This document shows, one piece after another, positions 4,575 to 56,513 of a stretch of DNA of 64,000 nt. The notes under the pieces were generated by a model that searched no databases, was not told the origin of the DNA, and saw only the letters and a program-made list of their open reading frames with translations. The first letter of the stretch is position 1. Every line of letters starts with the position of its first letter. A program made the translations under genes and the position numbers. The DNA lies in the NCBI RefSeq assembly GCF_000497125.1, contig NC_090601.1:1302001-1366000 (forward strand), in the 5' to 3' direction. This DNA comes from Spironucleus salmonicida (Eukaryota).

Positions 4575-4911
4575 TTTTATATTATGTTACAAACAATATC
4601 TTATAATCAAATCAAAATATAAGTTAATAAAAATGTGATATTTTTATATATTATTAATTAATATAGTAATTAATAATGTTAAATTTTAAATTTGCTTTTG
4701 TCTAATTGCCCGATAACATATTTAAATTAATAACTTTATATTGAGAGTAACAATAGAAGTACTTACTTTTTTCTATTGCCGACACAAACTATAAAGTAAC
4801 CTTATGAGATAATTGTAGCTACTGCTCAATGTTCCAAGCTCTTCTAATCTATTACATATATTTTTCATTAACAGTATATTATATGAATATAGAGTACCCA
4901 TTCCATAATTC

Positions 4912-7900: not shown

Positions 7901-10599
7901 AGTTCGCTATTAGAAATGGTATTTCGTAGCGTTTAATTGAAAAAGTTAACCACTTAGTGTCAAATATTTCAGTTGAGCATCTACAATGTGATAGCAGATA
8001 TGATTAATTATTACCAATATGTTAAAGAATATTCCCTGTATAAGAAAATACTTAGGTAATTAAAGAAGAAGTTAAAGGTAAGAAGGATGCTCCAAAGAAA
8101 ACTGAAAATAATTTTCAATAATAAGCAGACTCTATGCTTATTAAGAATAACATTGCTTAATATGTTTAACTTATTTCTAATGTCTAAACAGGGTAGGTAG
8201 AAAGTGTTTATTTTTAAGATTCATTAGGATAATCGATTCCTTTATTAAGAGCTACCTAAAAAGAATTTGAGACGATATTTTTACCTTTGGTTGTTAAAGA
8301 ATTAAAAAATTCTCCTTAATAAGTTCATAGAATTATTTTAAAATAATTAAATGCATATGTATATGCTATAAATAATAAATTAGAAACATAAATTATTCCA
8401 TAAGTTATGAGATAGATACTTATGATGTAAAGATAATTAGACAAGGAATTATAAGAAATTTCACAATGGGGTAGTGATAATGAAGTTTCTTGTGACTTTA
8501 GTTTTGCAGACCAAACTGTTGCATTTCTTCTTAATTCTTACAATATCCCATAAAAATTGGTCATCGTTGAAAATTCTAAAGCTACATCACACCCAACGCT
8601 AAATATTACAATATCATTAATTCAATAATTAGATATGATGAAATAGGACATTGAATCTAAGTTTTCATAGGATATTTATTTAATCAAACGAGTTATAACA
8701 TCGTTATCTAAAGTTATAGAAACATGCAATACATAATAGATTTAATAACATAATAAATAAGTATTAGTCTAAAGAGAGACTAGTAAATTATAGGCTTTGA
8801 TAACCGGTCGTTTCACATCACTAGATGCGTAACTTGATAATATTAAGGCAAACATTAAAAATGGAGAAAAATTATTTGCTCTGTAATATTTACATGAAGA
8901 TATGAAATAGTCCAAATCTGTACTACAAAGTCTTACTATGAAAAATAATTCTAGATCAAAAAGCTCTATTAGTTCATAGAAATAGCTAACATTTGTTAAT
9001 GATTAATAAATTTTGAGTAAGTCAGCTTAGTTTGTATAAAATAGTCTAAATTTAGAATTTATCTACTACTTACTTTCTTATGAAAGACAACTTACAGAAG
9101 TTGTTTATTTGAAATCTTCTAACTACACATTAGCATTAGAGTAATATTAGTAGAGATAGAAGGCATTTAATTCGTATTTCGGATTGTTTTCATCACTAGT
9201 TACTATGATTGATAAGTTATTTGTGAATAAGGACAAAATGGAATTTCAATAAATTTTAGATTTATGTAGTAATACCAACTAGTTTATTGGTTCGAATAAA
9301 TATGAAACAAAAAACAAAATATATGTAAATAACGACACAGTAGATATTGGAACCTAATTTGCTTCAGAGTATAATTAGTTAATTGCTAAATTTCCAGGAA
9401 TTATTATTTAAAAGGACAATATTCGTGAAAAATGTGTTACTGAATAAGACTGGGTTAATTACTATATCAATAAGATGGTTGATAGATTGGATAAAAGTTT
9501 TAGTGATCTTCGTATCAAATGCTAATCTATTGTTGCTTAAAGAGATAGTACTATGCAAATAATACTAAACAATTATAGATAGTATAGTTAAAAATTAATA
9601 ATTTAATTATTTACATAATAAAGATCATCAAGCGTTTTGTAATCTTAAAAGTTTAAAGAAGAGTTCTTAAAGCATTTTAATGGTTTGTATGATAAAGTTA
9701 GACCAGTTTTAAAATCATTACCTGAGAAGAAAGCATAACTTTTAGAATAAGGTCTATAATTTTATAATAGTATGAAAGTTCAGCTTTCACAATATGCAGA
9801 ATATCAAGACTAAGAATTTTCACTTTAGATTTAATTCTTATTATTATCAGTTTTGGTTCCTCATCTGCTTTTTTCATTATATCCATCAATACCAAACTCA
9901 TCATCAGTGTCATTATAAATATCAACATTGATAGATATCTTCACGAAAGATGATACAGTTCCTGTAAAAGAAGCAAAAGTTAAAACTCCGGTCGCAGAAA
10001 CCCGTAAGCTGGTTCTTTTATAAGAGATTGATTAGATATAACCATCGTCAGATGAGGTTTTTGCGAGTTAATATGTTAAATGTGTTAAGTGTCTCACCTA
10101 AAATCTGAATTCGAAGTAAATTATATTTGATATTTCTAAAATTGATTAAAAAGTACTGCTTTCTGCACAAAATAATCCTAAACCATAGTTAATGCAGCCT
10201 TTTGCAAAAGCACAATTAATACCTGTTGCTGATGCAGAATCATTAGAAATATATAGATAAAATGAGTCACGTCCAGCAAGTAAATTAGGTGAAAAACCTC
10301 CTGCAAAAGGGGCTCCTATTTTAGGAAAATAACCTGTGTTAATTAACTTTAATATTGCGTTGTAAAATCTTGTATTGGCTGATGATGAAAAATCCATGAA
10401 ATTTGGAATTAATGTTTCAGTTCCTGTTTCTAATGATAAGCTGAGCGTTGAGTATGGATCTAATATTGCTAACGCATGTTATTAAACTATTGATGGATGT
10501 TGTAGCGATACTAGTACAGTCAAAAATGCATTTGAAGAGGTTAATAAAGTAATTGAACAAGTATGGATAGAGTTTTAAGAAGCATTAACTTCAATCTGA
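4912..10599 (+). CDS. Large coiled-coil protein (~1895 aa), possibly CCDC180/DUF4455-DUF4456-like
   Basis: Single frame open with TAR=Gln from ATG 4912 to TGA 10597-10599 (includes track ORF 5812-6024); long helical, K/E-rich sequence. Family resemblance judged by eye only and is weak. Confidence 0.65.
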
Positions 10600-10654
10600 T
10601 TCTGATAATTTCATTGCTCATTTAATATTATAATTATTTATCCATTCCAAATTA

Positions 10655-13309
10655 ATGCCACCAATTCAGAAAAGTATAATGGACTTCTTAAAACCAAAAA
10701 CTTACACATAATCATAAGAAATTACTATTAAAAAAGAAGAGAAACAAATACCTAAGACACCTGTTCTAAAACCAATCAATCCAAAAGCTTCAGTTGGAAT
10801 ATTAAAAACACCTTCGCCAAAGCCTATTCATATAGCTCCAGCATATTCTCCTTCTAATTAATCTCCGTAAAATTCTATTGATGTGTCTCGGTTCTATTCT
10901 CCATCACCAATAGCCTAGGATGCAGATCCAATATTATTCAAACCTACCAAAGAAACGCCAATGTTGAAGTAATATAATTACATCAGAAATCAACTTGAAA
11001 TTGATACTGCTCTATTTTTACAAAATGGTGCATTCTACGAACTATATGAACAAGATGCTAGCTTTGGAGGTCAGTTTCTATAGCTAAAAGTCGTATAAAA
11101 ACATGAAAATATGGTAATGTCAGGGGTTCCTATGGTATAAGGTGATTTCTTCATAAAAAGGTCTCTTTAACTCAATCGACGTATCTGTGTGGCCCTCTAG
11201 TTCGAATAATAGGACCCAAGATTCAAAATATAAAAACGTGAAATTTCTTATCTTTTAAGTCCAGGGTTAATATAAGATCCTGATTTTTTGTCATCTAGTG
11301 CGTATGGTTTATTATTTTTAGATACTAATAGTGCTATTTTTATAGACCTTATAAAGTAATCTTTTAGTCATTTTGAAATTCCAGAAGATGAAGATTTATA
11401 ATAACTATTAATTTTAATTTAGCCTGCAGAAGTATTGACAAGTGATATATAAAAAGCATAGATTGCAAAAATTTATGTGAGCTGTGTAACGTACTATCCC
11501 GAAAGTTATTTTGAAAAGTTAGTTAACGAAGGAAAATTTTCACATTTTCCAAAAATTTTAAATCAATACTTAAGTTATATGAGAGTCGGTAAACTGAATT
11601 AAATGGAGTTTTAATAAGATGATATAACGAAAAATGTATTTTTACCATCGTCAACAATTTATTCACTTAATTTGGAATGTAAAACTGGATACTCTCTTCT
11701 CAAAACTATAAATTTCACATAAACAAAATAAGGGTTTTAAATGCTTAGAAAGTAGGTTTTAAGGCCGTTTTTCATGAAAGAAGATATATGTTAATATCAA
11801 AAACTAATCTAAAGCTTTGCATCAGTTTCACTCGAACAATTAAAGCAAATTCAAAAATAGTTGAAATAATGTATTGATTATGAAAAATATACTCATTATA
11901 TCATCAAATAAGCAGAAAATGTAAAATTTCCAATCAATTAATTTCAGGTACTAATCGTCTCTTTCTAAAAGGGAATTAACGTGTTGAATCAGCTTTTAAC
12001 TGAGCAATTTTACACCGTTTTTATCGATAGGGTAAATGTTGCATCCATTCAACAAATTGTTGATTAGTTCAACTAAAACTTCTAAATAATAAACAAAGAA
12101 CTACACTTGCACGATTCAAACTCTAATTTTCAATAGCAAAAACAAAAATCCGACGAGTTCTAAAACACTCTACTGTCATATTTGCGGGAATTAAAGCTTT
12201 CTTATGTGACATAACCAATCCTCGCCAAATCGCTCTCCTCAAAAGATTCCAGGAACTTCTTAGGTTTTACGCCAGCCCCTAACCAGTTTCTAGTTGTAGG
12301 CCGCGACCTACTTTCAACCGACCAGCTGCTGTCAGCCTTCAAGGGAAAACACTCATTAACCTACATTGCCTCCACCCAAACCGTCCACAAATTCGCATTT
12401 CCTGAAATTTTCTAAAAAGAAGTGGAAAATCAAATTCAAAGTCAAAACTGTATGCTCAAAACCTCAATTTCTGAATTTTTGAGCTACCTCAAAATCGACC
12501 AAATAGCCCAATTTTCGGCCCAAATCGCCCTATTCGATTTTGCGATTTCCCTCGCGATCCTGCCTCTCAAGCACGCGAATTTCCCCTGGTGTTTCCCGCA
12601 GATACAGACCGCCAGCGCCTCAAAACTCAGCTTCCGGAACGCGGTCCACCCGATCGCTTTCAGCACGCAAACCGCCTGGCAAAAGCAGTCGTTTTCCGCT
12701 TCAAAACCTGCGATTCTGACGGGCGCCAACACGTCCGGCAAGTCGACCGTCCTGCGGCTCATCGGAACGCTCGCGATTTTGGCGCAAATCGGCGCGCCGG
12801 TGCCCGCCGAAGAGGCCGTTTTGGTGCCGTTTTCAGCCGTTTTGGCGCGCGTTGGAGGCAGCAAAAGCGCGAATTCGACCTTCGCGGCGGAGTGCCTAGA
12901 GACCAGTTTCCTCACGAATAGTATGACGGGCCGAAGCCTGGTGCTGATCGACGAAATCGGCCGCGGGACTGAGAGCTCTGAAGGGGACGCGCTGGGGCAG
13001 GGCGTCTGCGTTGAAATACAAAAAATGGGTGTATGCGGAATCGTCGCGACGCACTCGGCACCCGTTAAAGCGCTAGCGGCAGTTCTGGGCATTTCGCTGA
13101 TCAATATGACCAGTTTTGTATAGAATTCGAGTGTTGTGAACAAGTACGAAATCGACGAAAGCGGAGAGGGGAAGAGCTACGGTATCGAGGTCGCGCGGGG
13201 GATGGGCATCCAGGAAAGCGTTATTGAGGAAGCCGAAAAATTGCGCGACTAAATGGAAAAGCAGAGAAAAATAAAACTTTTCTTAAAGCTTTAAGAGCTG
13301 TGCGTGTGA
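10655..13309 (+). CDS. MSH6: DNA mismatch repair protein MutS homolog, MSH6-type (~884 aa)
   Basis: N-terminal PIP-box-like QKSIMDF; domain I TPMLKQY...GAFYELYEQDA (Phe-X-Glu mismatch motif); Walker A LTGANTSGKST, STFAAEC, Walker B LVLIDEIGRGT, ATH, SYGIEVA. Confidence 0.85.
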
Positions 13310-19273: not shown

Positions 19274-20833
19274 TCAAAATTGCATCCCGCTGAACAATTT
19301 AATAAACTTACCTTCTGACTAAGTAGATGTTTATTAAAACTAATCTAGTTCGATAATTTCGGTATCTCCCATCAAATTTTCATTAAAAGTACTTGTCTTA
19401 TGAACATCGCGTTCTGTAAATCCTTTAGTACCTCGTTCAAACCGGAAAACACCCATAAAGAAAGTTATACTTACTACACCTATTCCCAAAAATGCAGAAA
19501 ACATGTAAACCCAAAAAACTGATTTGGCGCTTAATGTGCCTTTTCCTGAATTGTCTCCATAAAAAAGATTGTTTACTAATACCGCTATTGATACACCTAT
19601 AGAATGTCCAGTATTGGTTACAATTTAATTAAAGACACCAATTTAATTAGCATATTTTGGTGGAGATGCTGAAAAATTATAATTGGTTAGACAAATTGTT
19701 GTAGCAACAAACAATCCCATACCAATAAAATTTAGTATTCCGTATAGTGGTATATTTAAAAAATATCTAACATGAAGCCCATTAAATAGTAATACAACTA
19801 TATATACTGAATAAATTATTAAAATAGATCGCTTGGTAATAAGTTTTTTGAACATCAAATTACCAATAGGAGAAAAGACAAATGAGCCACATCCAGCTAC
19901 AGCTATAACAATACCTGATATTGCTGGAGTCAAATTTACTAACCGCATTTACACATATGGCATATAAAATTTCTCACAGAAAGATATAGTATTGTTAAGT
20001 AGAATTAAAAGTTCCACCAAAATTGTTGATTTATTGAATACCTCTAGTGCAAAAATAGGATTTTTAGACCATTTTTTATTGTAAACAAAGAAAAATATAA
20101 TAATTCCAATTGATAATACCAATAATATTGAGCTAGCATAATAAGGAATAAATTGATCAGATAAACCCGTTAAAGACAATATTAATAATGATAATCCAAT
20201 GGAAAGCTAAATTACTCCAATAAAATCTATTTTTGCGTGTCGAGTTGGTACTTTATAAGGCAGAGTACTTACTTAAGCAATAACATAAATAATCGCGACA
20301 CATCCAGTTATAACGAACATATAACGCCAACTGGATGCTTATGCTACCACTCCAGCTACAGATGCTGAAAAAATCATACCGACTGGTACCATGATACTGA
20401 TTATAGCAATTGCAGTTGGGAGTTTATTAGGCTAAATAAGTATATATGCTAAAGGTGTTGAAGATGGCAATACTAAACCTAGTCCAATAGAAGCTCCCAA
20501 TCTTAAACTTAGTACACCGGCAAAAGATGTTTCCAGCTATGGAATTAAGAACATGATATTACAAATTGCAAACAAAATAGTACCTATAGTAAAGACAATT
20601 GGTGTTCCAAATTTATCCGCAAGTTTTCCAGTCATCGTAGCTGTAATAACTACCGTTAGTAATTCAATATTAATAATCCATGAGGCTATTGCAGTGGTAA
20701 TTCCCAAAGAGGCAGCGATTAGGGGCAAATTATTATTAACATGTGCAGATGATAATGCATATAGAAATTAAGCGGGGGCAGTAATCATTGCAGTCTTCCA
20801 TCCGACAGTTTTCCGTAATTCATATCTTCCCAT
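19274..20833 (-). CDS. Major facilitator superfamily transporter, DHA2-like (~519 aa)
   Basis: Joins track ORFs 20537-20728, 19949-20179 and 19643-19948; MFS motif A TGKLADKFG, SSWRYMF, KIDFIG. Confidence 0.85.
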
Positions 20834-20941
20834 TTGATTTATTACAGATATACTTAAGTTTAATATATAATTAATTAAATAGTCTCTAATAGAGTTTTAA
20901 GAAAATACGATTATTATATAAAATAGTTAGAATATTATTAA

Positions 20942-22378
20942 ATGATTATAAAACCACTCGGACCTAAGTTAATTTTTGATACAGAATTTTATGATTAGGA
21001 GGTTTATAACTCCTTATAAATTACCCAAAGTAGAGATTAAAATAATTATTTAACACCAAAATAGATTTCTACATTAAAGTTGCTTGAAGTTTTTCTAAAT
21101 CCCAACGAGATTAAATATATGAGGAAATAAAATATGGATTTTTGTAATGTAACAAAGCATGCTATTGCAAATTCATTGTCATCTGGTGTTGTATTTTGCA
21201 TAATTATAAGCAAGTTTTTATAAGATTTATAATTTATATTAAACCCAAAAACTGAGAAAGAACGAAAAATTAATTTTAACTGCGTTTCATCATTTTTGGA
21301 ATCATAGAATATATCCACATCAGAAGTATCCATTGAAAATTTTGATGTAATTATGGATTTAGCACAGTAATTGCTTTAAAAAGTTCAAAAAATCTAGGTT
21401 TAAACGGCGATAACTAGTCAAGTTTAAACTAAAGTGAATTAAACATTAATATGTAAAAACTAGTAGAAAGTTGATAAATTTACTCCAAACTGGGTGATTA
21501 AAAAGATAAATGATACGAACATTGAAAATAAATTAGAATTTATAAATTAAAATAATGATATTTTCCAAAAGGTAGAGTTTTTTAATACTAGGTATAATAG
21601 TTCAATGAATTTCTTAGAGAATACTGCTCAAAACGGGACTATATATGTGAAAATCTTATAATCATCTGGCTATAATATAAGTATTGAAAAACCATAAACT
21701 ATAGCTAATTGTAAAAATAATATTCAAGGAGTTTTAAATCTTTTAATTAAACTAGGAATTAAAAAAGTTCCAAACCTGGAATAAATACTGAAACATGATT
21801 TGTTTTCAGTTATTTTACTGTTATATATAGTAATAGGTATTTCAACAAATTTCGGCTTGATTTAGCCACCTTCTTACAAAAAGATTATTGACTTCATTAA
21901 ATGCCTAGAAATAGAAATCAATAATATAGACTAAATCATTCCTTTAATGTAAAATGGTGTAATTATAAGACAGTTCTTAAAACGGATGTTTATATTTCAA
22001 AATATAGATATACATTTACCTAAAAGCGATAGAATGCTTAGAACAAAAAGTTAATGTTTAAACTATCTTTAAAAATTAAAAGCAATAGCAGCAGATGGAA
22101 ATATTATTATACTATAAAATGTTGCTGATATTTGTGATAATAATTTAATTATTATTAAAAAAGAATTGGAACACTATATAGAAATTTATACATTAAATAA
22201 TGGTATAATTCTTGATTTTTAATCTATCAGTCCAAACTTTATAAAATATGGAGGAATATAACCCATATATTTGATAGATAACCTATATCTTAATTAATAA
22301 TTTCTTAATCTAGAAATATTATATCCTAATATATAATTATAAAAAATCACTTAAAATGACTAATAATTGTAATAGTGA
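20942..22378 (+). CDS. Protein with putative tandem calponin-homology-like domains (~478 aa)
   Basis: Open frame ATG 20942 to TAG TGA; three segments resemble CH helices: SLSSGVVFCIII..NPK...RKINF...SFL, QNGTIYVKIL..KP....NNIQGVL..L..LGI, QNGVII...ADICDNN. Confidence 0.55.
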
Positions 22379-24455
22379 TTAGAATATTGATCAACCACTT
22401 GTTATCTCGGAATTAGAATAATCTCTTACGAATTATTCAGAAATTTCTTAAAAATTAAGAATAGGCTAAAGGTTAAGCTACTCATCATTAACGCTAGACA
22501 TATTAATTTTTATGTTTTTGGTCTCTAGTATAGTTGTAATAAATATTAATAACTTATTATCCTAAAAACAGTAGGTAGAATATTCTTAAACTAAAATTAT
22601 TCAATTCATCATTTTGATTGTCTTTAATCATGCTCATGGAGATTTTTTGTTTGTATACAGCTTTCTAGTCATATCGATATTTCCATCTATCCTGTAATTT
22701 AAAGATTAAACCATTGCTAATAACGTAATTGATATTATTTTTGCAGTATTAGTTTTCATATCTTTCCATTTGAAATATTACTCTAGAAAATATATTTTCA
22801 CAGAATTTGTTTAAATAGGATAAATACTATTTAGTATAACAATTAATTTCTTACTTACCGCTGGGATGATTATCTTATAGTCAATAATATAGGAATTAGA
22901 TGTCAACAATAATCAAGAAATTAAATATTTTACTATTTATGCTGGTTAGGAAATTCTTATTTTCATCCTAACGTGTGCATGTTTAGTATATCAGCACTAT
23001 TTTAATGAAATGTCTGTTAGCTTCAAAGCTGTAATAGTTATTCTTCTGTTATGTTTAATTTTTGGGCTGGTCATTGCAGGTATTTTAAATTTGGTTCTAA
23101 TAATTTATATATCTGGTTATAATTATGTCAAAAATCTAGATCCTGTTATTATTAGTACATGGACAGAATTCACATTCCCTTCATTCTCACCTGCATCGAG
23201 TAAATCATTAGCAGCATTAATCTCTACATTTATGTAGTTTTTCATGTTAGATTATATAAATTTTAATTTTTCAAGAGAATTTACATTCTAAAATATTAAA
23301 TTTTTCAAGACTTAAAAACTTATATTTTAAATTTTTTTTGCTGAAAAATATGAGATTATAATATCAAGTATTTTTATCCTAATAAGCTTTGCAACTGTTA
23401 GTGTAGCAGATTTTATTAACTTGTTTTTCTTATTCATTTCTGGTGCTTTATTTCACGACTCTGTGTTAAAAACAATCCTAAATTACTTATCATTTGCATT
23501 TGTTATACTTATCATTTTTCTTTATCTTTTTATTTGCTACAAATAGAAATTATAAAATGGTAAGTCTGTTAAATACGGCATCCTCTAATTTCTAGTAGGG
23601 ATATTTGCTATTCCAGGTGCATTCTCTATTGCATTAGTCAAAGTAATTTTCACTAACATTTTACCATGCTAACTGTAAAATACAGGTCAAGTAATTATCA
23701 CTCAGCTAATAACTCCTGTTACCGCGGCCCTCTCATTTATTGTTTCTTTTCCATACTTCTACTAATTGTATAACTAATACACTAATCTCGAATAGACATC
23801 ACAAAACTAGCGTAAAAACTTATTAATCGCTAGTAAGATAGTTTCTAGTGCAAATAATAGTCATTTTGATAATAAGTTACCATTTTCGACAGCTCAATTG
23901 AAGTAACTTTAAAAAGCTAAAGTTTATATAAGAGCAACAGATACGTAGCTACAAATAGCGTTTGCTGGTGCCAGAACATTCTAAATTTTTTCACTGAGTA
24001 AAATGATTATTTCTGGCTTTGATTGGATACGTTATAGTTTCTCACGTAATAGAATTTATACATTCAGTTAGTAACAAACTTTCATACCTAAGTATGCTGT
24101 AGATAGAGCAAAATTAGTTTAATAGATAGTATGTGAAACAAACTTCGGCGGATTGGAAATAGTAATTGCTGGTCATCATTTTGGGGCTATTTCGGCGTTA
24201 TACTTGGCTGAAAAACTAGGCGTTAGAGAAGTGTACACTTTTAACGCACCTATGCTAGTTAAATAGTCATTTTATGAACATGTAGGAGCTATGGGAATTG
24301 ATAGTAGCTAGAAATTAAAAATAAGTAGCATTTTAAATCAGTAAGGAAAGTGGGGTAATTGCTTCTATGTTAATGGTGGAGAGTGGCCTACTAGGGTATT
24401 TAGTGGTGCAGGTGTGTGCAGTGACATAATATGGGAAATTAAAAAGCTATAATGA
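22356..24455 (+). CDS. Multi-pass membrane protein with C-terminal class-3 lipase-like domain (~699 aa)
   Basis: ATG 22356 in frame with track ORF 23010-23237; many TM helices, then QIAFAG, IVIAGHHFGAISA and VYTFNAP. Confidence 0.65.
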
Positions 24456-24466
24456 TAAATTTTCTC

Positions 24467-27400
24467 TCACTTCTTCTTAATTGGCGCAATCATAGTTCTT
24501 CTGAGCATACCTGCAGTACGGCAAATAGCAATAATGGCTCTAAGACCCCAATCATAATGGTCTTATTTTGACAGCAATTCCTTATTTAAATTGTATAGAG
24601 TGATAAACTTTTTAGCTAGCTCTCTAGCAGCCATGAAACCGTTAGAAATAAGCATAATTTCTGTAATTTAGCAGAAATCAGGTACCACCATAGCAACACC
24701 TCTAAATAGTGCTTTCAAGTTATCCGGTAATTCGGCACGACCGGCATAACCAGGATTCATAGTAATGAAATAACCAACTTATTTGTTTAACTTAGCCTTT
24801 GGCATACCAGGACGCTCTTCTTCATCTCCTAGTGTAAAATATTGTTTATCTGCGCGAATAGCATCTAAGACAGTTTTAACCTGCATAGCGACGACAGACA
24901 AAACCTCTACTTCAATTCTATTGAATTCATCGAAGCAACCCCATGAACCAGAAAGTGAAAGACCGTAAAATATATTACCAAGTGATCTATAGTCCATTTC
25001 TGGTGAGCAATTGAAAACATAAACCATACGACCTAAGGCTCTACCCAAATCTTTAGTTGTCTCAGTTTTACCTGTACCAGCAGGCCCAGCAGGAGCACCA
25101 CCAAGTATCAAATGTAGTGATTGTGTAAGAGTAATATAACATCTATCTGTAAGAGCTGTAACGACTAATCTGGCAGTGCAACCTAAATACTCGTAAGTAT
25201 ATAGGAATTCTGCGTCACAAATATTAACATAACAATCTTATTATTATTCATCCCAACGGAATTTCAACTAAGATTACCAAGCAAAAGCAGAAATTACCTC
25301 AACCTTGTCTCTGATTAATGCGGCAACTATATCCTTTGAATGCACTTCAATTGTACAAATAGTAGCAATTTTGGTACGCATATTTTTATCTAAATCACCC
25401 TAAGTCATAGTAATGAAATTAAGCAAGGCGTCGTTTTGCTTCTTATTGTACTCTTTAAGAGCCTGTTCATTGCCTTCTTCCAGACGCTCGAAAGCAGCTC
25501 CAGTATCAGATGTCCAAAAGTTTTGCAATGCAACCAAACAAATTTATGCTGGATAAACATCTAACCATTTTTCTCTATCCATATCTTAGAATTACTATAA
25601 AGAAGATAGAAGACTACTACGCAAAGTATCCATCATATATACAACTAATTTGTTGAGCCACGATTCTACGGGACCATCACATAGGCAATTAGCATGCAAT
25701 TAAACAATTTCATTTTCTCCTGAAACCATTGCAGTCGCTTCTTTACAAAGAGCATCATCAGTAGTCCATTTTAAGGCGTGCATATTATCAAATATTTTTG
25801 AAAGATGGCGTTCGACCTATTTAGGCTGTTAACCTTTAGACAGAATATCTAACAAGTCTACAGAAGAAACAAAATAGAATCTTGGGAATAAACGACGTTT
25901 AGTATCAAGATAGTCGGCAAGAGCCTTTTCGCATTTTTATAATTTTTCTTACATTTACTCAAGATTTTCTTACAGGCCAGCCTATTATGCTGATTCAATA
26001 CAATTTGAGATCCAAACAGCAGAATTCATTGCAACAATCCAAGATTCATTCATTTGTTCAAAGCGTTTAGAATCTTCAGGTAGCTACTCTCTGATATCCT
26101 ACGATCCAATGAATATAGGATAAAGATAGCTCCAAGTACGTTAGACTTCAGACCAAACCTAAATAACAGAATCGACTTGAGCTAATTTCTTTTGCCAGTC
26201 CATTACTTCGTCGTAGAAAAATTTAACATATTTATTAGAGACCATGTTCTAGACAGCAAGCTAATCTTATTCTAACTGGTCAGCTACTTCTTCAGGAACT
26301 TAAATATTATATAGAAGTTCTTTACCAGATTTTATTTATTCTGCGTCCTCTTCTAACATGGGCTAGGTCAAAATAATCAAATTAACATCTCCATGGTGGA
26401 TAAAATTGAAGTTGAGGTCTTTCCAAACTTAGTTTAATGCAGTAAGTTATTTTTCCATTGAAAGTTCTTTTTCTGCTTTAGATACGATTTCTTCAACAGC
26501 GTCTGAGTGTTCGTGCAGATTAAGCTTGATTAAATCAGATAATTAAAACTTGTCATCAATAGTAAATGAAACTTTAGTAAGTTCTTTTAATTATTCCCAA
26601 TGACGGCCACGCATAGCATGAGAGCGTAATTTCTGGATAAGTGGCAATGTTTTCAAGAAATTCTTAACTAAGTTATCTAATTTGACATAAGCATCGTTAC
26701 CACGAGACATACGGTCAACAGATCTGATTTCCTTTACAAACTTCTTCATATTCTCTTCCATATATTCTACATCAACATCCTTGAATAAAGTATTATTCCA
26801 TGAACCTAATTGAGACTCAACCATATCAGTAATATCCCAAATTAGCTTGAGAGAAACTAACTCTTTCTAAAGATTTGCAATAAGATTAATCTCTTCCATC
26901 TCTTTATCATTGGCAAATGAAGAATCAAATAGTTTTTGTTTTTCAGTTAAGAAAAGAGCTTGATCACGCAACTCTCCTAATTCGACTAAGCAAGTATCAA
27001 GCATTTCATAGGCTCTATCTATACCAACATCTCTAAGGAAAGGACCTTTCGATTTAAAGTGCTCTTTGAAATCCCAAACTTTGTTCTAGAAAACTTTAAC
27101 AGACTCAAATGTTTTTTATGTTTCCTCTTAAACTAATGGAGCTAGTTCTTCTCTCTTATTATAAGATATTTATTTAACTTTTTCCCATTCCTTTGGTAAG
27201 GATTCAACTAAAGAGGATACTTCAGGTGCAAATTAAATATTGTGTCTTTATAACATCTGCATCAATTCTTTAATAGGTTCAAACATCGTATCATACATAA
27301 GCGTGTTATCTTTTATATCTTTTTAAATGATTAAAGCATCTTCTAAAGATTATCCGGCTACGATTTCAGATTATAATTTAGCTTTAGCATTATTGCAGAA

Positions 27401-30400
27401 AGCAGATAAATTTTAAAGTCTACTGTTTGTTGAAGCTATTAAATGATTCGTGAAAAGATCTTTGAAAGAATCTACAAGTTATAATAATGAGGTCTTAGCA
27501 CTTCTAACATTAATCTATAGCCATCCAATTCTAACAGTAAGTGGCACATTCTATGATACTTCTTCTCTGATATTTCTATATTTTTCAATAGCATCATTAA
27601 AATCGTAAATATCAGGTATTCTATAATATTTAAGCTCCATTTCAATAGTTTAAACAGTAGGACCGTTGTCTGTTTTTTGGTTTTGTTCCCCTTCTTTACC
27701 TTCTTCTCCATTATCTTCCTATGTCTGACTATTTTACTTTACAATTGTTCTAACAATATGTTATGTTTTATCAGCCATTGCTTCAGTATCATATTCTCCA
27801 GAAAGAGGGACATTAGGACCATCCTTAAGGAATCTTTACAAATAAGCTTTCCTGTCTGTTTAATAAACAGGTTTATACTTTTCATAGTTTTATTCTTAAT
27901 CAGCAGCCATATGTGCGCGTTTAATAACTCTATTTTTAAGTTTATCTTTTGCGGCAATAAATTTAGGGTTTCTCATGATGTTGAAATGGAAATCTCTGAA
28001 ATCATTACTAGATTTCAACTTATCATCTGTACAGGATTAGGTTGGATTAGGAACACACTTAGCAACATTGCAGAAAGAATCAATCCATTGAGATAATGTT
28101 TACTCTAATGTTAATTTAGTGGCATTAGATTAAACTTATGGTTCAAAGAATAAGTCTGGATGGCGAATTAGCATATTGATTTCGATGAAAGGATATGAGC
28201 TTTCATTAATAATAGCCGACAGATTATCCAATTCATTATGCTCAATTGTTTCTGACTCATCCATATACTTTTGTAAATACTTAACATTAGTTACGACAAT
28301 GTCTAAAAGACCACATTAAATATATTCAGCTAACCATAATAAATATAGATCCCAGTACTAAACTAATTGCTCTGAATTAAAACCAATGAGTTCCATTACC
28401 TTAGTTTCTTCTTCTGAAGATGGCTTTTCTTCAGTTGGTGTGAAAAACACGGCCTGCTTAGAATTTTCTACTGCTTCTGTAATTTTTTGAGATTGAGTGT
28501 CTTTTATTTAATTAAGTTTAGTTTAAATTGTATCAGGGGTCTTATCTAAAGATACTGGAGCTTTTGCAGGTTTATCAACAAGAACTATCTTAGACCAGGC
28601 AACAAGGAGTTATTAAATAGAATTAATATTATCTTTCAGAGTAGAAACTTACATGAATAAAACGTTCAGTGGTAAGTTTAATTTATCTAAAAATATATTG
28701 ATATCAGCAGTTGAATCTTTCCATGTTAACTTATCAATACCATCAACTAACATTGACTCTATATATTAAAGTTGAGGATAGAAAAGTGGACGCTCAACAA
28801 ATACCAATTGTTTCTATACAAAATTATATTAATTTTATATAACATCGAGTTAAATCTTTGTCTAACGATAAGCATCAGCTTTAGCAAATACTTCTAAAGC
28901 ATCTTCACTTACTTCCATATCTAAAATCTTGAAAATCTTAGTTTCTTCCATAAGATCCGTAAGTTCAATAGAGAAATTAGTTTTAATTAATTTAATTAAA
29001 TCTAACTCGTCATTTCTAGTGATTCCTTCAGGAGTTATATAAACGTCATTCTAAAACTCAATTAAGTTAGGCTAGACTCTAATAATTAACTTTTCTGCAA
29101 GCTTTTCAGTACAAACCATGTCAATGCCAGATAACCATCGTTAATGTTGTTCAATTTCATACTCTTTGAGCTTTTACACGATTTCCAAGAACTTCTACCT
29201 ACTAATTTCAAATCTGTCATCTTTCACGATGCTTTCCGCACGTTCAAGATATGCAATATTCAAAGCATCAAGTTTTTTGTAAGGAACTCTAGTTTTATTC
29301 AGCAATACTCTAGACCACATAACTGCACCTGAAAGAGGTGGTTAATTCTTCTCAAGAGGAGGGTCATCTTTATTTGTTGTGAATTCATCGAATATCTTCT
29401 ATAACAAAGCTAAAAACATGTTATTAAAATGCCCAAATTTAGCTTAAACTACATTTTTAAGAACAGCCTCAGGTAATATACCTGAAAATGATTCAACAAC
29501 TGTGATTGCCTATTCTAATGTAATAGAAGAATCAATGCCAGTTTCTAAAACAGCAACTAATCTCTTCTCCCAAGAAGTATAATGTTTAATAAATTTTGCA
29601 TGATCTTCTTCGAACATATCAATTTGTAAATCGGTTGGATCATAAGTAGACTCTAAAAAGATTGCAGTTTTGGCGTTATATAAAGCAAAAATTTGTTAGA
29701 TTTACTTTGATAGTGAATCACCTTAAACACCGCCGACCTCCAACTTTTCTAATCTCTGCATACACGCATTAATAGTAATGACTCTGTGAATATCTTTGAT
29801 TCTTTCAACAAAAGCTTCGAAGCGTTTAAACACTAATGAAAGTGTTGGCCAGCACCCTTTGTTAAATTTATATCTTCTATAAGCATTAATTGAGACTTTC
29901 TCTTCTTCCTAAGGCTCTGCTTCTTCAACAGGAGCTTCTTTGGTTTCTTCTGGTTCTGCTTTTTCTTCAACAGCAGCTGCATCGGCAGCCTGATCAGCTT
30001 CAATCTTTTCTAGTTGCTTTTTCTTATTCTTTGATTGCTTTTCAATATACTCATGTTATAATTGTATCAATGCTTGACTAATTCTCTGTCTTTCGTTAGA
30101 ATCTTCCTGAGACTAATCTCCCATTTCACGACAATCTTCAACAACTTTTTCAGCATATTTCTTATAAAGAATGATGAAATCATCAGCTAATCTAGAAACA
30201 TTTTCAACTAAAATTAAAGAATCAGAAGGCTCGTTTTTAAGAATATTTTCACCTTCTAAAATAGTTCTCATCTATTTAATAATTAAGTTGCAAAGAGATC
30301 TAATTAAAAATATATATCTAGTAGAACTATTATAAAATGGAGCATGGAACCAAATAATGTATAATGCCTTAAAAATAGCTTATAAAATGTTGCTAGCTTC

Positions 30401-31357
30401 AGCGATATCAGCTTCATCTAATAACTATTAGAATAATGGGCGCAAAGGAGTCAAAAATTAAGTGTTTGAATTACATTCAGCAAGAGTCTAGTGAACTTCT
30501 TCAATAGTTTTAATTAAAGCTGGGTAATAGGTAGAGTCAATAGATTTCAAAACTTCTATAACAACTTTGGCTTTCTCAGTATTTAATTAGTCGATAATTG
30601 AGTTAAGATTGTCAGTTTTATGAACCCAGAAATCAATTTCTTCCATTGGCAAAGGATGTGATCCCTTAATGATATCCTCTGGTTGTGTATTGATAACAAC
30701 ACGAATCTACTTTATCCAATCCAAAACAACTGCTTCTACGTCATGAGCTGAATCTCTTGACTGCTTATCTAGCTAAGAAATAATAGACAAAGTTGCAGAT
30801 TCTGACTCTTACGCAATAACGCATATTTTCGAGTAAATTGAAGCTGCTTCTGAAGGAATTGGCAGCAAGCATTTTCCCTGGATCTTACCCTCAGTTGTGT
30901 AAATAACCTGTGAGAACTTGTCAGACTGCTTGACAACATCCTAATAAAGCATATCAGGCCAGTCTTTCGTGAACTGTTCAGCTTTGAGCAAGGGCAAGTA
31001 CATGTAATCGAGCTTCGTACGAAGCATTTGAACAACATTTGGCGTGTAATCGCCATAGAACAGTGAATCCTTGATAGGCTTGTCCTTTTCGAGCCTGGCA
31101 ACGCCAGCAGCTTTGGTGAAGTAAATAGCTTTGCGGCGGAAGACCTCTGGCGCCCTATCGGCGATAATGAGGTCGCCCTACTTATTCTCGTAAACGAATA
31201 CGGTGTGCACCTCCTCAGACTCGAAGAAATTCATTAACACTGCGGTGTGGTCATTCTCGGAAGCAGATTTGATAAATTTGTCCTCTTTAATCTTCAGCGA
31301 GCTTGCCACGCGGGGACGCATCCAGTTAGCACGGGGGTCATCAAACTGATCTTCCAT
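24467..31357 (-). CDS. Outer-arm dynein heavy chain beta, N-terminal half only (tail + linker + AAA1, ~2296 aa)
   Basis: N-term [16 protein letters not shown]; linker [18 protein letters not shown]1 [68 protein letters not shown]; then stop AAG TGA at 24467-24469. Confidence 0.9.
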
Positions 31358-31360
31358 GTT

Positions 31361-31386
31361 AAATTTTGCGGAAAGAGAAGGGAAAT
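31361..31386 (-). promoter_or_regulatory. C-rich core promoter motif upstream of dynein
   Basis: Minus strand ATTTCCCTTCTCTTTCCGCAAAATTT-AAC-ATG after an AT-rich tract; the same CTTTCCGC precedes the MORN5 ATG. Confidence 0.55.
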
Positions 31387-32332
31387 ATTTAGATTAAATT
31401 AAATATTATAATAATAATATTTATTTTTTGAAAAACATATTATATATATGATAAAAGGAAATGATGAGATAAAGGGGACGTAAAATTGGAGTAAACTGAA
31501 GCTTTTTGGTATCTGATATAAAAATTGGGGTTATATATCGCTTAAAGATATGATGAGAATTCTGATTAACAAATGGTGTTAAATTATAATATAAAGAGAT
31601 AATTTTCTTGAGTTGCAACTGTCAGTAAGCACTAATTTTTCATTGTCGATTTTAATTAAATCAGAAAATCATTATTATAATCATAATTTTGATAATCATA
31701 ACTATCCATATTATATATAATAAAATAATTATAATTGGTCTAATATAATTTTTTAATTAATTTATCATAGTATGATTGGTACTTAAGTAAAACCAAAGAA
31801 GAATGACTAACATAATGCAATTAAGGTAAAATACCATGTTTTTAGTATTATATATTAACTGCTTAAGCTATACACCTATATTTCAACTTACTTAAATACT
31901 AAGTAATGAATAAAAATAACGTTTTCAATTTTAAATAACTTTTGAAAATCATGTTATTATAATTTTACTGAATTTATAATAATCATACTAACTGCTTATA
32001 TTTATTAAATTATCAGGTATTAAATATCTAATTTTAAAGATAATAGCTTAGTTTAGTTTATTTAATATACTTGCTGAATAAATTATTTATTAACTACCAA
32101 TTTTGCTAAGAAGTTCAAAGTATATTACATATTATTTATATGTAATATAATTAAAAATTCTAAAATAATTAATAGTGAGGTAAATTTAAAATATGATAAT
32201 ATATATTCTTAACACTTATTAAGTATTGACTATAAAAGCAACATTTAATATAGCAATAAACAAATTAAAAAATTACTAATTATTCGATAGAAATATAATT
32301 TCATTTTTTCAAGAATAAAATTAATATTTGTA

Positions 32333-33901: not shown

Positions 33902-35473
33902 TCAATAGAAATTATCCAGCTAAAACGGGACTCGATTACTTTATCGATCTGTTGTTGACGTTACTTCATTGAATTCTTCATTAAGTTCAGAGCTTAATAC
34001 AGTGAATTCATCATACGAATGTGTAAGATGTACATCATGTTCGTTAAATCCTAGCCTTCCCCGCTCCCAACTAAATGTACCCATAAAAAATGATAGCACA
34101 ATTAATATCACCAAACAAATTAAGCTGATACCTATACTTAATGAACTAGAAAGAATTAAGTTATTTGAAGTTAATCTAAATATTGATGTGAATATAGCAG
34201 TTCCTGCAGACCAACCAAATTTTGAATTGAGTGCTACAATACTTCCAGTAATAAATGCGTATTACTTTGGGGCTGTAAATGTGTTAAATATTTAGATGCA
34301 AAGTATCATTTGCACGTTAACAAGCTCGATCATAATATATAACAATTCTATGAAGTATATATTCTAAAATTTTTATATAGCAATAAGAATTATGATAAAT
34401 AATATTAATTATAACGAAGAAGCTGTTTACATTACACGCTTATTTGTTACTTTTTTTAAAATAAAAGGATATAAAAAACAAAAACAACATGAGATAAATT
34501 ATGTTACGCCTTAAATTATACCCGATTACAAAATATCTAGATTAAAATATAATCTCCATAAAAGGGGAGTAAACCAATTAATAGATTGATAACTAATGGT
34601 AATTAGCAATATTTGTAGCATAAAAATTATAGAATTACGGTTAAATATTTAATTTGGAAAATTTTTAACTTAAGCTTTATAGTTGTATATGAAAAATAAT
34701 ATTAAGAAAACTACTCCAAATATCAACAAAAATATTTCTACAATCCAATTTCCTACTCCAACTGCAACAAACGATAAATTTATAACAATTAAGCTCATAC
34801 CAATAGATCCTAAAATAATTCCAATGAAATTACATTATGTTTTATGATTTTTTTCTGTTCTAGGTAAATAAAATAATAAAAATAGCGAATGAATTATTCC
34901 CAAAATACCTGCAAGCAAGAATACCAGTAATGGGTGATACTATACAGTAAATGTCGATAACATTAATGCAATAAGTGCTCCAAAGGGCACAAATATATCA
35001 CCTGAACCCATTGAAATTTCTAATTTACCAGGTTTTATTAGAAAGTTCATCATTGGCGCTGTTGATGTATACATTAAAGTATATCCAACTGCTGCAAATA
35101 ATCTCATCATTATAAGATAAACAAAATTTTTCCAGAAAAATATTGAGACATTAAAAATTGTAACTATAATAGATCCTAATATATAACAATTCGGTATTGT
35201 GAGTAAATCATGAAACTTTGATGAAAATAATCCCATAGTACACATTACTAATATTTCGGCATGTTGAACCAATTGAAGTGTATTAATGTTAATTTAATAA
35301 TAATCTGCATATAACACAGTAAAAGAGTATAATGTAGTATTTGTTAATGTATATAAGAATTATGGAAATGATGCAGCAAGAACAGTAAAAAATACGTTTG
35401 TATTTCCAGGTTGTAACATTGTTTTATTGAATTTATTGAAGATAGGAGGTTTAATTTAAGTAATATTAGGCAT
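33902..35473 (-). CDS. Major facilitator superfamily transporter (~523 aa), paralog of 19274-20833
   Basis: In frame with track ORF 34940-35272; shares PxQFLYxL-like N-term and GFxExDVHxT C-term with the first MFS. Confidence 0.8.
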
Positions 35474-35651
35474 ATTATATTACGGAGGATTTAAATATAG
35501 TTATGACTATTTCTTTTTTAAATGATTTTTCTTTGATTACATTTTAAGAATGAAATATATTTATTAATATACGTATATAATAATATTATACTGTATTAAA
35601 ATTAATTATATATGATATATAAATTATCAGTATTATATTTTCATTTCTTTA

Positions 35652-54875: not shown

Positions 54876-56435
54876 TCAATCACATTTACTCACCACAAGC
54901 ACGCCGTTGCGCTCCACCAGCCGGCGCCCCCAGATGAGCAGCACGGCGAGACACACCAGGAACTGCTCGCCCCCGGAGTAGGCGAACTCCCACTGGAGAG
55001 AAATAGCCTCGGCCGGGAGCAGGACCAGCGTCTAGAAACCACTGAGCAGGTGCCGGACATACAGCTCGGAGCTTCGCGTATAATAGCTCTGGATGCTTTG
55101 GAAGTTCGCGGAATCGGAGCTTCCTGTTGGTCCGAACCCTCCAACGAAGGTGCTTGCAGCGACTGCATCGTACAGGGCCGCCTGATATGCCAGGAGCTCT
55201 CCGTTGGAGTAGTTGGAGTGAACTAAGAGTGTATCCGTGTTGTGCACGTAAGTCTCTAGGTCAGGAGCAAAGTTGGGCGCGAATCCAGGCGAGATACGCG
55301 TCGTTGCGAGGCTGCCGTGGAGGCTGCAGATCTCGGCAATGAGCGTCTAGATGATCTCCCCGTAGTACTGGTTTTGCTCCTCTACGTCCCGCTACTCCTC
55401 AATAATGTCGCGGAGGTGAGTTTGCTGGGTTTGCATCTGCTGGGAACTGGTCTGCATGTCTTCAATGTACTCATTTAGGCTTACCACTTGGTCCTGGAGG
55501 GCTTCGATACGATCATTGGCAAGCTATAGCTTCACCTCGTTTGTTTGGACGTGCAGCCTGCCAGTGTGCATTTTCGTGAAGCGCTGTAGTTCAGCAGACT
55601 TCCGGCCCGGACAGGGCACCTTTGCCTTGCGGACGATACTCTGAAGAAAAATCTTCCTGTCCTCGAGTCCCACTGTAGTTTCAAGTACTTTACACTGATC
55701 ATCTCGCGCCTGCAGCGACTTCTTGAGGAATGAAACCTCATCACTTTCCCGGAAGGAAATACCTTGTTAGGAGAGGGTCTTTATGCGGTTGTACTATTGT
55801 ATATATAGTGTAAGGTCCTTATCCAATTAGTTATTTTGCTAACGTATCGTAGCCAGCTAGGCCTCATAATCCTTGGATACCATATCGTCGTGACTGGCTT
55901 TTAATGACCTAAGATGGTCAAGCAGGGCATCCGGTGTTACAAAAGAAAGCTGAAAAAGCTGTGCTATCTCCTTTATAGCACGCCGATACTAAGACTGTCC
56001 GTTGCCGTCAACCTGGACCCCGGCATCTTAATAGGTGGTCGTAGATCGCTGGTTATGCTTTACTAGAAACTCTGTCGAAAAGTCTAGTAAGAACAAAACG
56101 TTCTTATCGGCTGAAAGTTTTTTGAAGTTAATGTGCTGCAGCCCCTGACACAGCTCAACGAAGGTAGAACTACTGACCTCGGCAGTAACCAAATCGATAA
56201 GGTTCTTCAATGCAGGTCTTCTACACGCGCAGCATTTTCTGAGCGGCGGAACCTGGACTGTACCGATGGGGAGGTCAAACTCAAAAGTGCACGGGAAGGC
56301 TCTTTCCTGTATGATTGTTCGTAAGTTGACGATGAATGCTTTGATCTCTAGAACCAGCAGCTACTTGCACGAGTCACATATGTCCTGGGCCCTAAGATAA
56401 AATAGCCGTTGGGAGACATGGCCAGTAAGTGTCAT
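54876..56435 (-). CDS. Coiled-coil protein with N-terminal Cys cluster and possible kinesin-14-neck-like segment (~519 aa)
   Basis: Joins track ORFs 56028-56210 and 55032-55247; CDSC...CCACR, long coil, LIAEICSLHGSLATTRISP. Confidence 0.7.
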
Positions 56436-56513
56436 CTTTTGTAAGCCCAATAATATACTGGATATTAGTTTCTAGTGAATACCAGAGAATACAGTTCCCT
56501 CCAAATAAATCGA

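What the first reader, a model, noticed from the sequence alone, without database searches (positions are those of the whole stretch)
24467..31357. Half a dynein: outer-arm beta heavy chain ends cleanly after AAA1 (split motor)
Seen: the ORF carries tail, linker and complete AAA1 motifs, then leaves consensus right after QDHYDWGLR...GMLRR and stops at IAPIKKK-TGA. The stop has the AAG-TGA context typical of real gene ends here, and a convergent gene ends only 11 nt away (24455), so AAA2-6, stalk and MTBD cannot follow in cis. Known: dynein heavy chains are normally single ~4500-aa chains. From recall, not checked: in Giardia intestinalis the outer-arm beta chain is fragmented, partly trans-spliced and partly made as separate polypeptides. 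Inference: the AAA ring is assembled from two separately translated proteins split between AAA1 and AAA2, or the mRNA is joined in trans. I saw no GTATGT-type donor next to the end, which favours a two-polypeptide motor.
Basis: partly seen in the sequence, partly recalled or inferred. Interest (0 to 1): 0.8.

Follow-up and report, generated by a model that had tools for sequence, protein, structure and literature searches.

The report
Split outer-arm dynein, N-terminal half
This is a real gene for only the front half of a flagellar dynein motor. The back half is made as a separate protein, an oddity already described for Giardia and Spironucleus.

Summary
Under genetic code 6, window 24467..31357 (-) is one 2296-aa ORF with dynein tail, linker and the ATP-binding core of AAA1. 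It ends 9 residues after ...AGMLRR at a TGA.

A sequencing-run contig follows the gene through the stop and then carries an untemplated A-run plus adapter 10-11 nt later. None of 4 runs shows a joint. The same break, with an invariant LRR.MI ending, occurs in 8 of 8 fornicate N-halves: diplomonads, Dysnectes and Kipferlia.

Giardia muris and Hexamita inflata each encode a separate "outer-arm dynein beta" protein. It starts with its own Met exactly where the N-half stops. No fused form turned up.

One correction: the break lies inside the AAA1 module, in its small lid part (Pfam AAA_6 positions 1-229 of 327), not between AAA1 and AAA2.

The two-polypeptide reading is well supported, but it is already in print: Roy 2012 for Giardia, and Kollmar 2016 explicitly for Spironucleus salmonicida, including the duplicated N-half gene. 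I could not retrieve this genome's own C-half.

New details are minor: the poly(A) site, conservation of the break across fornicates, and a second N-half very divergent in the tail but 75-89% identical in AAA1.

The parts
24467..31357 (-). Coding sequence of the N-terminal half of outer-arm dynein beta (2296 aa, code 6, stop included)
   Evidence: ORF. Pfam DHC_N1, DHC_N2 and AAA_6. An identical protein is in the collection as P0002.
28712..29836 (-). Tail region, best DHC_N1 stretch (residues 508-882)
   Evidence: E 5.6e-99, 2 stretches.
25610..26878 (-). Linker (DHC_N2, residues 1494-1916)
   Evidence: E 4.1e-119, model positions 2-400 of 403.
24494..25201 (-). AAA1 ATP-binding core plus the first lid helices (AAA_6 match, residues 2053-2288, model 1-229 of 327)
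   Evidence: The full-length homologue P0122 matches all 327 positions.
25064..25087 (-). AAA1 Walker A, GPAGTGKT (residues 2091-2098)
   Evidence: Translation. Invariant in 8 of 8 fornicate sequences.
24917..24937 (-). AAA1 Walker B region, CFDEFNR (residues 2141-2147)
24497..24505 (-). LRR, the last residues that align with single-chain dyneins (the break point)
   Evidence: alignment ends at query 290, DNAH9 residue 2059. (tblastn ends at 24497).
24470..24496 (-). Nine-residue lineage-specific basic tail, TMIAPIKKK; its M and I are invariant among fornicates
24467..24471 (-). AGTGA: stop codon embedded in the reported polyadenylation-signal context
   Evidence: Sequence. Motif described in Xu 2014, passage read. 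Window statistics.
24456..24457 (-). Apparent poly(A) addition site, 10-11 nt after the stop
   Evidence: tables 7 and 8. The run X3 contig covers 24456..30276 and continues with at least 9 untemplated A (gene sense), then adapter.
24505..24510 (-). GTATGC, donor look-alike that is not used (Gly-Met-Leu codons)
   Evidence: Contigs of 4 runs read through it with no joint or loose end. Orthologues with other residues at this site keep the reading frame.
22356..24455 (+). Convergent neighbour ORF (699 aa, many hydrophobic stretches, no Pfam family) ending 11 nt from the dynein stop
   Evidence: Contigs lie on it (table 8).

Best explanation
Window 24467..31357 (-) is a complete, independently polyadenylated gene. 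It lies in a Spironucleus salmonicida-like diplomonad that reads TAA and TAG as Gln. It encodes only the N-terminal half of the outer-arm dynein beta heavy chain (class DHC4; DNAH9/11/17 type).

This half carries the tail, the linker, the AAA1 nucleotide-binding core and roughly the first three helices of the AAA1 lid. The rest of the lid, AAA2-AAA6, the stalk, the microtubule-binding domain and the C-terminal domain are made from a second gene elsewhere as a second polypeptide.

The motor is then assembled without a covalent link. The two pieces of the AAA1 lid pack together. AAA1 meets AAA2 as in any AAA+ ring, so the main ATP site is built from both chains. The linker lies across the ring.

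What is shown: the gene's end, its conservation, and the existence of matching C-halves in sister lineages. What is inferred: the physical assembly of the two chains, and the partner in this particular genome.
For: 1. Gene end. Xu 2014 (passage read) describes AGTGA with a poly(A) tail about 14 bp downstream in S. salmonicida. Here a contig of run X3 is colinear from 30276 to 24456 and then carries A-run plus adapter, although the genome continues TCATT.

2. No joining seen. There are 0 joints in 4 of 4 runs and no loose end at the GTATGC. Contigs of X1 and X2 bridge the stop and the 11-nt spacer without a mismatch, so there is no misassembly. Roy 2017 (passages read) found no trans-splicing in S. 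salmonicida RNA-seq, including in the orthologues of Giardia's trans-spliced genes.

3. Conservation. Eight of 8 fornicate N-halves end 4-17 residues after LRR, with L, R, R, M and I invariant. These are the window protein, its paralogue P0011, Hexamita inflata, G. muris, a Giardia-like ENA protein, Dysnectes, Kipferlia and ENA P0008.

4. No fused form. Among proteins of 4019-5000 aa the best match is 767 bits at 60% identity and non-fornicate. The five split orthologues without an intein score 779-934 bits at 59-70% identity (Dysnectes 844, Kipferlia 762).

5. Partners. G. muris 'Outer-arm dynein beta, partial' (P0248, 1347 aa) starts MSGLNLEEIFREEEKVLCRALRD, which is exactly at the break. 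Hexamita inflata 'Outer-arm dynein beta' (P0409, 2536 aa) has no tail or linker domains, starts the same way and runs to the canonical C-terminus.

6. Literature. Kollmar 2016 (passages read) states that in S. salmonicida the C-part is one single-exon gene and the N-part gene is duplicated. It also states that in Giardia the N-part is translated independently, citing Roy 2012.
Against: This genome's own C-half was not seen. No whole genome is held. The window has no match to residues 1822-4244 of a full-length homologue.

No S. salmonicida C-half appeared among the 120 proteins listed, where the Hexamita one ranked second. It may be shorter than the 2359-aa floor of that search, or it may be missing from the collection.

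The four runs come from one study and their RNA nature is only the tool's guess. The A-run rests on one contig. Contigs drop rare variants, so a minor trans-spliced form is not excluded.

Physical association of the halves is untested here. The AlphaFold model of the last 254 residues was poor (pLDDT 57.8).
Confidence: 0.88

Rival explanations
1. The two halves are joined at the RNA level by spliceosomal trans-splicing of a split intron, as for other Giardia dynein pieces. The terminal codons would then be intron.
For: Giardia trans-splices the C-terminal pieces of this very gene. A GTATGC lies at 24510-24505.
Against: Contigs of 4 of 4 runs read through GTATGC to the stop, with no joint or loose end there, and one contig ends in an A-run. 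The residues after that site (MLRR.MI) are conserved as protein in 8 of 8 fornicates, most of which cannot have GTATG at that place. Roy 2017 found no trans-splicing in S. salmonicida. Partner proteins in G. muris and Hexamita start with their own Met.
Confidence: 0.03
2. It is a truncated duplicate or pseudogene of a normal full-length beta heavy chain that sits elsewhere in the genome.
For: A second, shorter N-half (P0011, 2087 aa) exists on a contig of the same length, so duplication has occurred.
Against: The 2296-codon frame is intact. The catalytic motifs are invariant. Contigs of all 4 runs lie on the gene. The same end is kept in lineages as distant as Kipferlia. No fornicate-like fused protein was found among longer proteins. 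Kollmar 2016 lists no full-length DHC4 for this species (its supplementary figure was not seen).
Confidence: 0.03
3. The two polypeptides are ligated after translation, by protein splicing or another ligation, giving a normal single chain.
For: Relatives of this gene do host inteins: Kipferlia and Dysnectes carry one in the AAA1 P-loop.
Against: No Hint or intein domain lies at the break. The tail after LRR is only 9 residues, and Pfam finds only dynein domains. The partner heads in G. muris and Hexamita are short and not Hint-like. The inteins seen are ordinary cis inteins at another site.
Confidence: 0.03
4. Assembly artefact: the gene is broken by a misjoin near 24470.
For: None found.
Against: Contigs of runs X1 (23451-28887) and X2 (23553-27029) cross the junction with 0 differences. 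The same protein end recurs in 7 other sequences.
Confidence: 0.01

Closest known systems
Spironucleus salmonicida DHC4 N-terminus genes as catalogued by Kollmar 2016 (Mol Biol Evol 33:3249, PMC5100056)
   Same: This is apparently the very same object: a partial outer-arm dynein gene encoding the N-terminus, present in two copies, with a single-exon C-part gene elsewhere (passage read). The window protein and the named S. salmonicida paralogue P0011 sit on contigs of identical length.
   Different: Nothing essential. The paper's supplementary figure S8, which may give the break position, could not be seen. The passage labels the class OAD-alpha, whereas best matches here are beta-type (DNAH9/17).
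Giardia lamblia dynein heavy chain beta (GilDHC4): N-part translated alone, three C-parts trans-spliced (Roy et al. 2012, Kamikawa et al. 2011; known to me only through)
   Same: Same gene and same break position. G. muris and a Giardia-like sequence end ...AGGLRRTMIPPVQRK... The G. muris next piece starts at the break.
   Different: In Giardia the C-half is itself in pieces joined by trans-splicing. In Hexamita it is one 2536-aa protein, and per Kollmar it is one gene in Spironucleus.
Split cytoplasmic dynein of Basidiomycota (Ustilago maydis Dyn1/Dyn2, Straube 2001; Wallemia split within AAA1, per Kollmar 2016)
   Same: A dynein motor ring made from two separately translated polypeptides. 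Wallemia is also said to be split within AAA1.
   Different: A different dynein class (cytoplasmic DHC1), of independent origin. The Ustilago break is in AAA4. Exact positions were not compared here.
Canonical single-chain outer-arm beta heavy chains (human DNAH9/DNAH17, Chlamydomonas and Tetrahymena beta; PDB 8j07, 9fqr, 7kzm, 7moq)
   Same: The last 299 residues, up to LRR, give E about 1e-127 against DNAH17 and DNAH9, with all AAA1 motifs in place. The order tail-linker-AAA1 is the same.
   Different: Those chains continue for about 2400 more residues. Here the chain stops at the equivalent of DNAH9 residue 2059.

Membership tests
Dynein heavy chain, outer-arm beta class (DHC4; DNAH9/11/17) | N-terminal tail and linker domains (DHC_N1, DHC_N2) | tested here: met
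   E 5.6e-99 and 4.1e-119.
Dynein heavy chain, outer-arm beta class (DHC4; DNAH9/11/17) | AAA1 with Walker A and Walker B | tested here: met
   GPAGTGKT and CFDEFNR, invariant among 8 fornicate sequences.
Dynein heavy chain, outer-arm beta class (DHC4; DNAH9/11/17) | Closer to beta chains than to other dynein classes | tested here: met
   DNAH17 429 bits, DNAH9 427, Chlamydomonas beta 353 and Tetrahymena beta 348, against gamma 331 and alpha 303-315. This covers the last 299 aa only. Names of best whole-collection hits agree. No class-wide tree was built.
Dynein heavy chain, outer-arm beta class (DHC4; DNAH9/11/17) | Six AAA modules, stalk and microtubule-binding domain on the same chain | tested here: not met
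   nothing beyond AAA_6 position 229. This is the point of the finding: it is a fragment-encoding member of the family.
Two-polypeptide (Giardia-type) split outer-arm dynein | N-part mRNA ends with its own stop and poly(A), with no junction to another locus | tested here: met
   A-run plus adapter after 24456 in one contig, and 0 joints in 4 runs of one study whose library type is guessed. Literature.
Two-polypeptide (Giardia-type) split outer-arm dynein | Break at the same residue as in Giardia | tested here: met
   all end just after AG.LRR.MI.
Two-polypeptide (Giardia-type) split outer-arm dynein | Separate C-half gene product beginning at the break with its own start codon | tested here: inconclusive
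   Met in G. muris (P0248) and Hexamita inflata (P0409). For this genome it rests only on Kollmar 2016, because no genome is held, the window has none, and it was not among the 120 proteins listed.
Two-polypeptide (Giardia-type) split outer-arm dynein | The two polypeptides associate in the axoneme | not testable with these tools
   No complex prediction was obtained. This needs proteomics, co-purification or cryo-EM.
Split-intron trans-spliced gene (Giardia HSP90, DHC beta/gamma C-parts) | Exon ends at an extended GTATGT-type donor and reads join it to a second locus | tested here: not met
   the only look-alike (GTATGC) is read through. There are no joints and no loose ends there.
Split intein (protein trans-splicing) | Hint-domain half at the broken end | tested here: not met
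   no Hint family in the window protein. The tail is 9 residues.

The most novel reading that the evidence does not exclude
The break may be an old, selected feature of all fornicates with its own docking device. The N-half keeps an invariant LRR.MI ending plus a mostly basic tail. The C-half has a short acidic head, seen in only 2 sequences.

In Spironucleus, two very different N-halves appear tailored to plug into one shared C-half motor. They are 18-34% identical through the tail and linker (residues 1-1800) and 46% at residues 1801-2000, but 75-89% identical in AAA1. That would give combinatorial outer-arm dyneins from interchangeable front ends.
Probability: 0.3. Interest if true: 0.5.

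Novelty: already known. Interest (0 to 1): 0.25.

Why it matters
A dynein ring whose main ATP site is built from two polypeptides is a natural experiment. It shows where the roughly 500-kDa motor tolerates a break, and how far it can revert to the multi-subunit state of other AAA+ rings.

Three modest additions could guide structural or tagging work on diplomonad flagella:
- the break lies inside the AAA1 lid;
- the break is kept, with an invariant ending, out to Kipferlia and Dysnectes;
- the two Spironucleus N-halves are nearly identical only where they should meet the partner.

Tried and rejected
- **Own genome.** The whole-genome search was not possible because none is held. Earlier notes of this scan had nothing on this genome.
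- **Sequencing runs.** No RNA holder is listed. The 4 holders are only guessed to be RNA. Bins 31352-32000 have no cover, and I draw nothing from that.
- **Finding the partner by generic queries.** A 1190-residue post-break stretch of the full-length homologue P0122 was searched against cluster representatives, giving 150 listed. I looked up names for 20 of the 150. Only one was a fornicate beta C-part (G. muris P0248). Others that start near the break look like truncated gene models or other dynein classes and were dropped. These include a Carpediemonas protein starting MVVPD.., ENA P0310, JGI P0286 and 'Eukaryota sp. TZLM1-RC' P0255.
- **S. salmonicida partner.** It was not among the 120 listed.
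- **Structure.** The AlphaFold2 model of the last 254 aa with an 18-row alignment has pLDDT 57.8, too poor for a fold search. It shows three helices after the last strand and a coil tail, which I use only as a weak hint.
- **Complex prediction.** None was obtained, so contact between the halves is untested.
- **Papers.** Roy 2012 and Kamikawa's Commun Integr Biol note are not held. Supplementary figures of Kollmar 2016 were not seen.
- **Tree.** The careful tree did not finish, so only a quick tree is reported.
Full report
**Observation.** Read with the standard or bacterial code, the region has no ORF longer than 139 aa. With table 6 (TAA and TAG read as Gln) the minus strand is open from 31618 to a TGA at 24467-24469. 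From the ATG at 31357 it gives 2296 residues. That start fits the orthologues, whose conserved N-terminus (..F.D.R..W...RV..SLK.K.DKW) begins a few residues after their first Met. Pfam finds DHC_N1 (5.6e-99), DHC_N2 (4.1e-119) and AAA_6 (5e-106), but the AAA_6 match covers only positions 1-229 of 327. So the ORF, the tail-linker-AAA1 content and the abrupt end are all real.

**Organism and identity.** The identical protein is in the collection (P0002) on a contig of 1,673,122 bases. That is the same length as the contig carrying 'Dynein heavy chain [Spironucleus salmonicida]' P0011. Together with code 6 and tightly packed genes, I infer S. salmonicida or a very close relative. Best matches by name are DNAH9/11/17 and 'dynein beta chain, ciliary'. 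Among solved structures the last 299 aa score highest on DNAH17 and DNAH9 (429 and 427 bits) and on Chlamydomonas and Tetrahymena beta chains (353 and 348). Gamma scores 331 and alpha 303-315. The outer-arm beta class is therefore supported.

**Where the chain stops.**
- Alignment to DNAH17 and DNAH9 runs to ...AGMLRR and no further, which is DNAH9 residue 2059 of 4486.
- tblastn of a full-length homologue (P0122) against the window ends at its residue 1821, the R of LKR, at window 24497.
- In P0122 the AAA_6 model spans 1594-1920 and the AAA2 AAA_5 match starts at 1909. About 90 residues of canonical sequence between the break and the AAA2 P-loop (..PEDQVLMRALRDFNLPKIV..FMGLIGDLFP..) are therefore absent here.
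- After the last strand (..VAMVVPD) the window protein has 61 residues. A low-confidence model (pLDDT 57.8) folds these as three helices followed by a coil tail.
- From general knowledge of AAA+ modules (recalled, not tested), the lid is a bundle of four or more helices. The break is therefore inside the AAA1 lid, not between AAA1 and AAA2.

**Is the end genuine?**
- The stop sits in AAG TGA, that is, AGTGA. Xu et al. 2014 (passage read) report AGTGA as the stop and polyadenylation context of S. salmonicida, with the poly(A) tail about 14 bp downstream.
- In the window, 11 of 25 long ORFs have G before TGA and 6 of 25 have AGTGA.
- I laid the contigs of four public runs on 22000-32000. All four are from one study, and their library type is only guessed to be RNA.
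- A 5845-letter contig of X3 is colinear from 30276 down to 24456. It then carries, in gene sense, at least 9 A followed by Illumina-type adapter, whereas the genome continues TCATT. That places a poly(A) site 10-11 nt after the stop, as the literature predicts.
- Contigs of X1 (23451-28887) and X2 (23553-27029) cross the stop, the 11-nt spacer and the end of the convergent ORF without a difference. This argues against a misassembly.
- No joint was reported in any of the 4 runs.

**Trans-splicing.** In fact a GTATGC lies at 24510-24505, but it is the codons Gly-Met-Leu.
- All contigs read through it.
- The residues behind it (MLRR.MI) are conserved as protein in sequences that have Thr, Gly, Asn or Ser instead of Met.
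- Roy 2017 (abstract and passages read) searched S. salmonicida RNA-seq. It found no trans-splicing, and none in the orthologues of Giardia's trans-spliced genes.
- Contigs can hide rare forms, so a minor spliced species is not excluded.

**Conservation.**
- Eight sequences end 4-17 residues after AG.LRR. They are the window protein, its paralogue P0011, Hexamita inflata P0004, G. muris P0006, a Giardia-like ENA protein P0005, Dysnectes brevis P0007, Kipferlia bialata P0009 and an unnamed ENA protein P0008. L, R, R, M and I are invariant.
- The tails are net basic in 6 of 8 by my count.
- A search restricted to proteins of 4019-5000 aa gave nothing closer than 60% identity and 767 bits, all non-fornicate among the 120 listed. 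The five split orthologues without an intein score 779-934 bits at 59-70% identity; the intein-bearing Dysnectes and Kipferlia score 844 and 762.
- The break thus predates the divergence of diplomonads from the Carpediemonas-like organisms sampled. In the library I searched I found no paper saying so. The Kipferlia genome paper does not mention dynein.

**The partner.**
- The window holds none, and no genome is held.
- A post-break stretch of P0122 was searched against cluster representatives. Name look-ups for 20 of the 150 hits followed. These produced 'Outer-arm dynein beta, partial [Giardia muris]' (P0248, 1347 aa).
- P0248 begins MSGLNLEEIFREEEKVLCRALRD... That is its own Met, a short acidic head, and then the canonical sequence that follows the break.
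- Using P0248 as query among longer proteins gave 'Outer-arm dynein beta [Hexamita inflata]' (P0409, 2536 aa). It has AAA2-6, stalk and C-terminal domains but no tail or linker. It has the same kind of start and a canonical C-terminus.
- The S. salmonicida partner itself was not listed. [quoted passage not shown] **The paralogue.** Identity between P0011 and the window protein varies sharply along the chain:

| Region (residues) | Identity |
|---|---|
| Tail and linker (1-1800) | 18-34% |
| 1801-2000 | 46% |
| 2001-2200 | 75% |
| Last 96 residues | 89% |

The last figure is higher than for any orthologue. In a quick tree P0011 falls with the window protein and Hexamita (support 100) on a very long branch (the careful search did not finish). 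This is what one expects if both N-halves must fit one C-half, but it is only an inference.

**Mechanism.**
- Shown: a separately terminated N-half gene; conserved break; matching C-halves in sister lineages.
- Inferred from established dynein and AAA+ structure (recalled): the AAA1 site needs the Walker motifs of the N-half and elements of the neighbouring AAA2 module. The lid would be completed by helices from the C-half, and the linker of the N-half spans the ring. Several interfaces could therefore hold the two chains together.
- The basic tail and acidic head may add an electrostatic clasp. This is speculative and rests on two partner sequences.

**Comparison and novelty.** This is the S. 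salmonicida DHC4 N-terminus gene already catalogued by Kollmar 2016, and the counterpart of the Giardia case of Roy et al. 2012. I could not read Roy 2012 and know it only through. Independent parallels are the split cytoplasmic dyneins of Basidiomycota, including one said to be split within AAA1. The finding is therefore already known. The additions here are the poly(A) site, the placement of the break within the lid, its conservation across fornicates, and the mosaic paralogue.

Noticed in passing
P0009 residues 1942-2344 (Kipferlia bialata); P0007 residues 1833-2245 (Dysnectes brevis); not in the window: The orthologous N-halves of these two free-living fornicates carry a roughly 400-residue intein (Pfam Hom_end_hint, E 6e-29 and 1e-22). 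It is inserted in the AAA1 P-loop between GTGK and TETT, starts with Cys and ends ..VVHN before Thr. The window protein and the diplomonads lack it. The held library has no paper with both 'intein' and 'Kipferlia'. Dynein inteins are reported for Anaeramoeba.
   Followed up: partly
window 31350-31357 (-): Contigs of runs X1 and X3 stop at 31351 and 31350 with adapter directly behind, 6-7 nt downstream of the A of the presumed ATG (31357). X2 stops at 31346. This points either to a nearly leaderless mRNA whose extreme 5' end is lost in library making, or to a start site inside the annotated first codons. Conservation of residues 5-12 with orthologues favours the ATG at 31357.
   Followed up: partly
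window 22356-24466: The convergent 699-aa ORF has many hydrophobic stretches and no Pfam family. It ends ..CTA TAA TGA, with TAA read as Gln. In X3 and X4 its contigs stop at 24449 and 24447, before its stop codon. In X1 and X2 a single contig runs across both gene ends. The two 3' ends may therefore overlap or abut within about 10 nt.
   Followed up: partly
window 56418-58733 (+), 61000-62304 (+), 62324-63967 (-): Two GC-rich ORFs end with the identical 29 bases GGGATC TGA GTGACGACTATAGCTCACTT. The sequence after the stop of the third ORF is the reverse complement of that tail. This is a repeated gene family with a shared 3' end, sitting in the 0.47-GC blocks.
   Followed up: no
window 10454-13309 (+), 19274-21160 (-), 33902-35542 (-): Neighbours include a MutS-family protein (MutS_I, III and V) and two major-facilitator transporters that flank the dynein locus at a distance. 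The 1931-aa ORF at 4804-10599 has no Pfam family.
   Followed up: no
P0255 (NCBI 'Eukaryota sp. TZLM1-RC', 2373 aa), not in the window: A C-terminal beta-type dynein protein, 53% identical to the query, whose first 92 residues are not dynein-like and which then begins inside AAA2. It may be a gene-model artefact or a differently placed break in another lineage. It is not resolved.
   Followed up: no
P0003 and P0408 (NCBI 'UNVERIFIED_CONTAM ... Acipenser sinensis'): These gene models top two searches with inflated scores but low identity (43-49%). P0003 contains the same dynein segment twice. They are artefacts, not relatives of special interest.
   Followed up: partly
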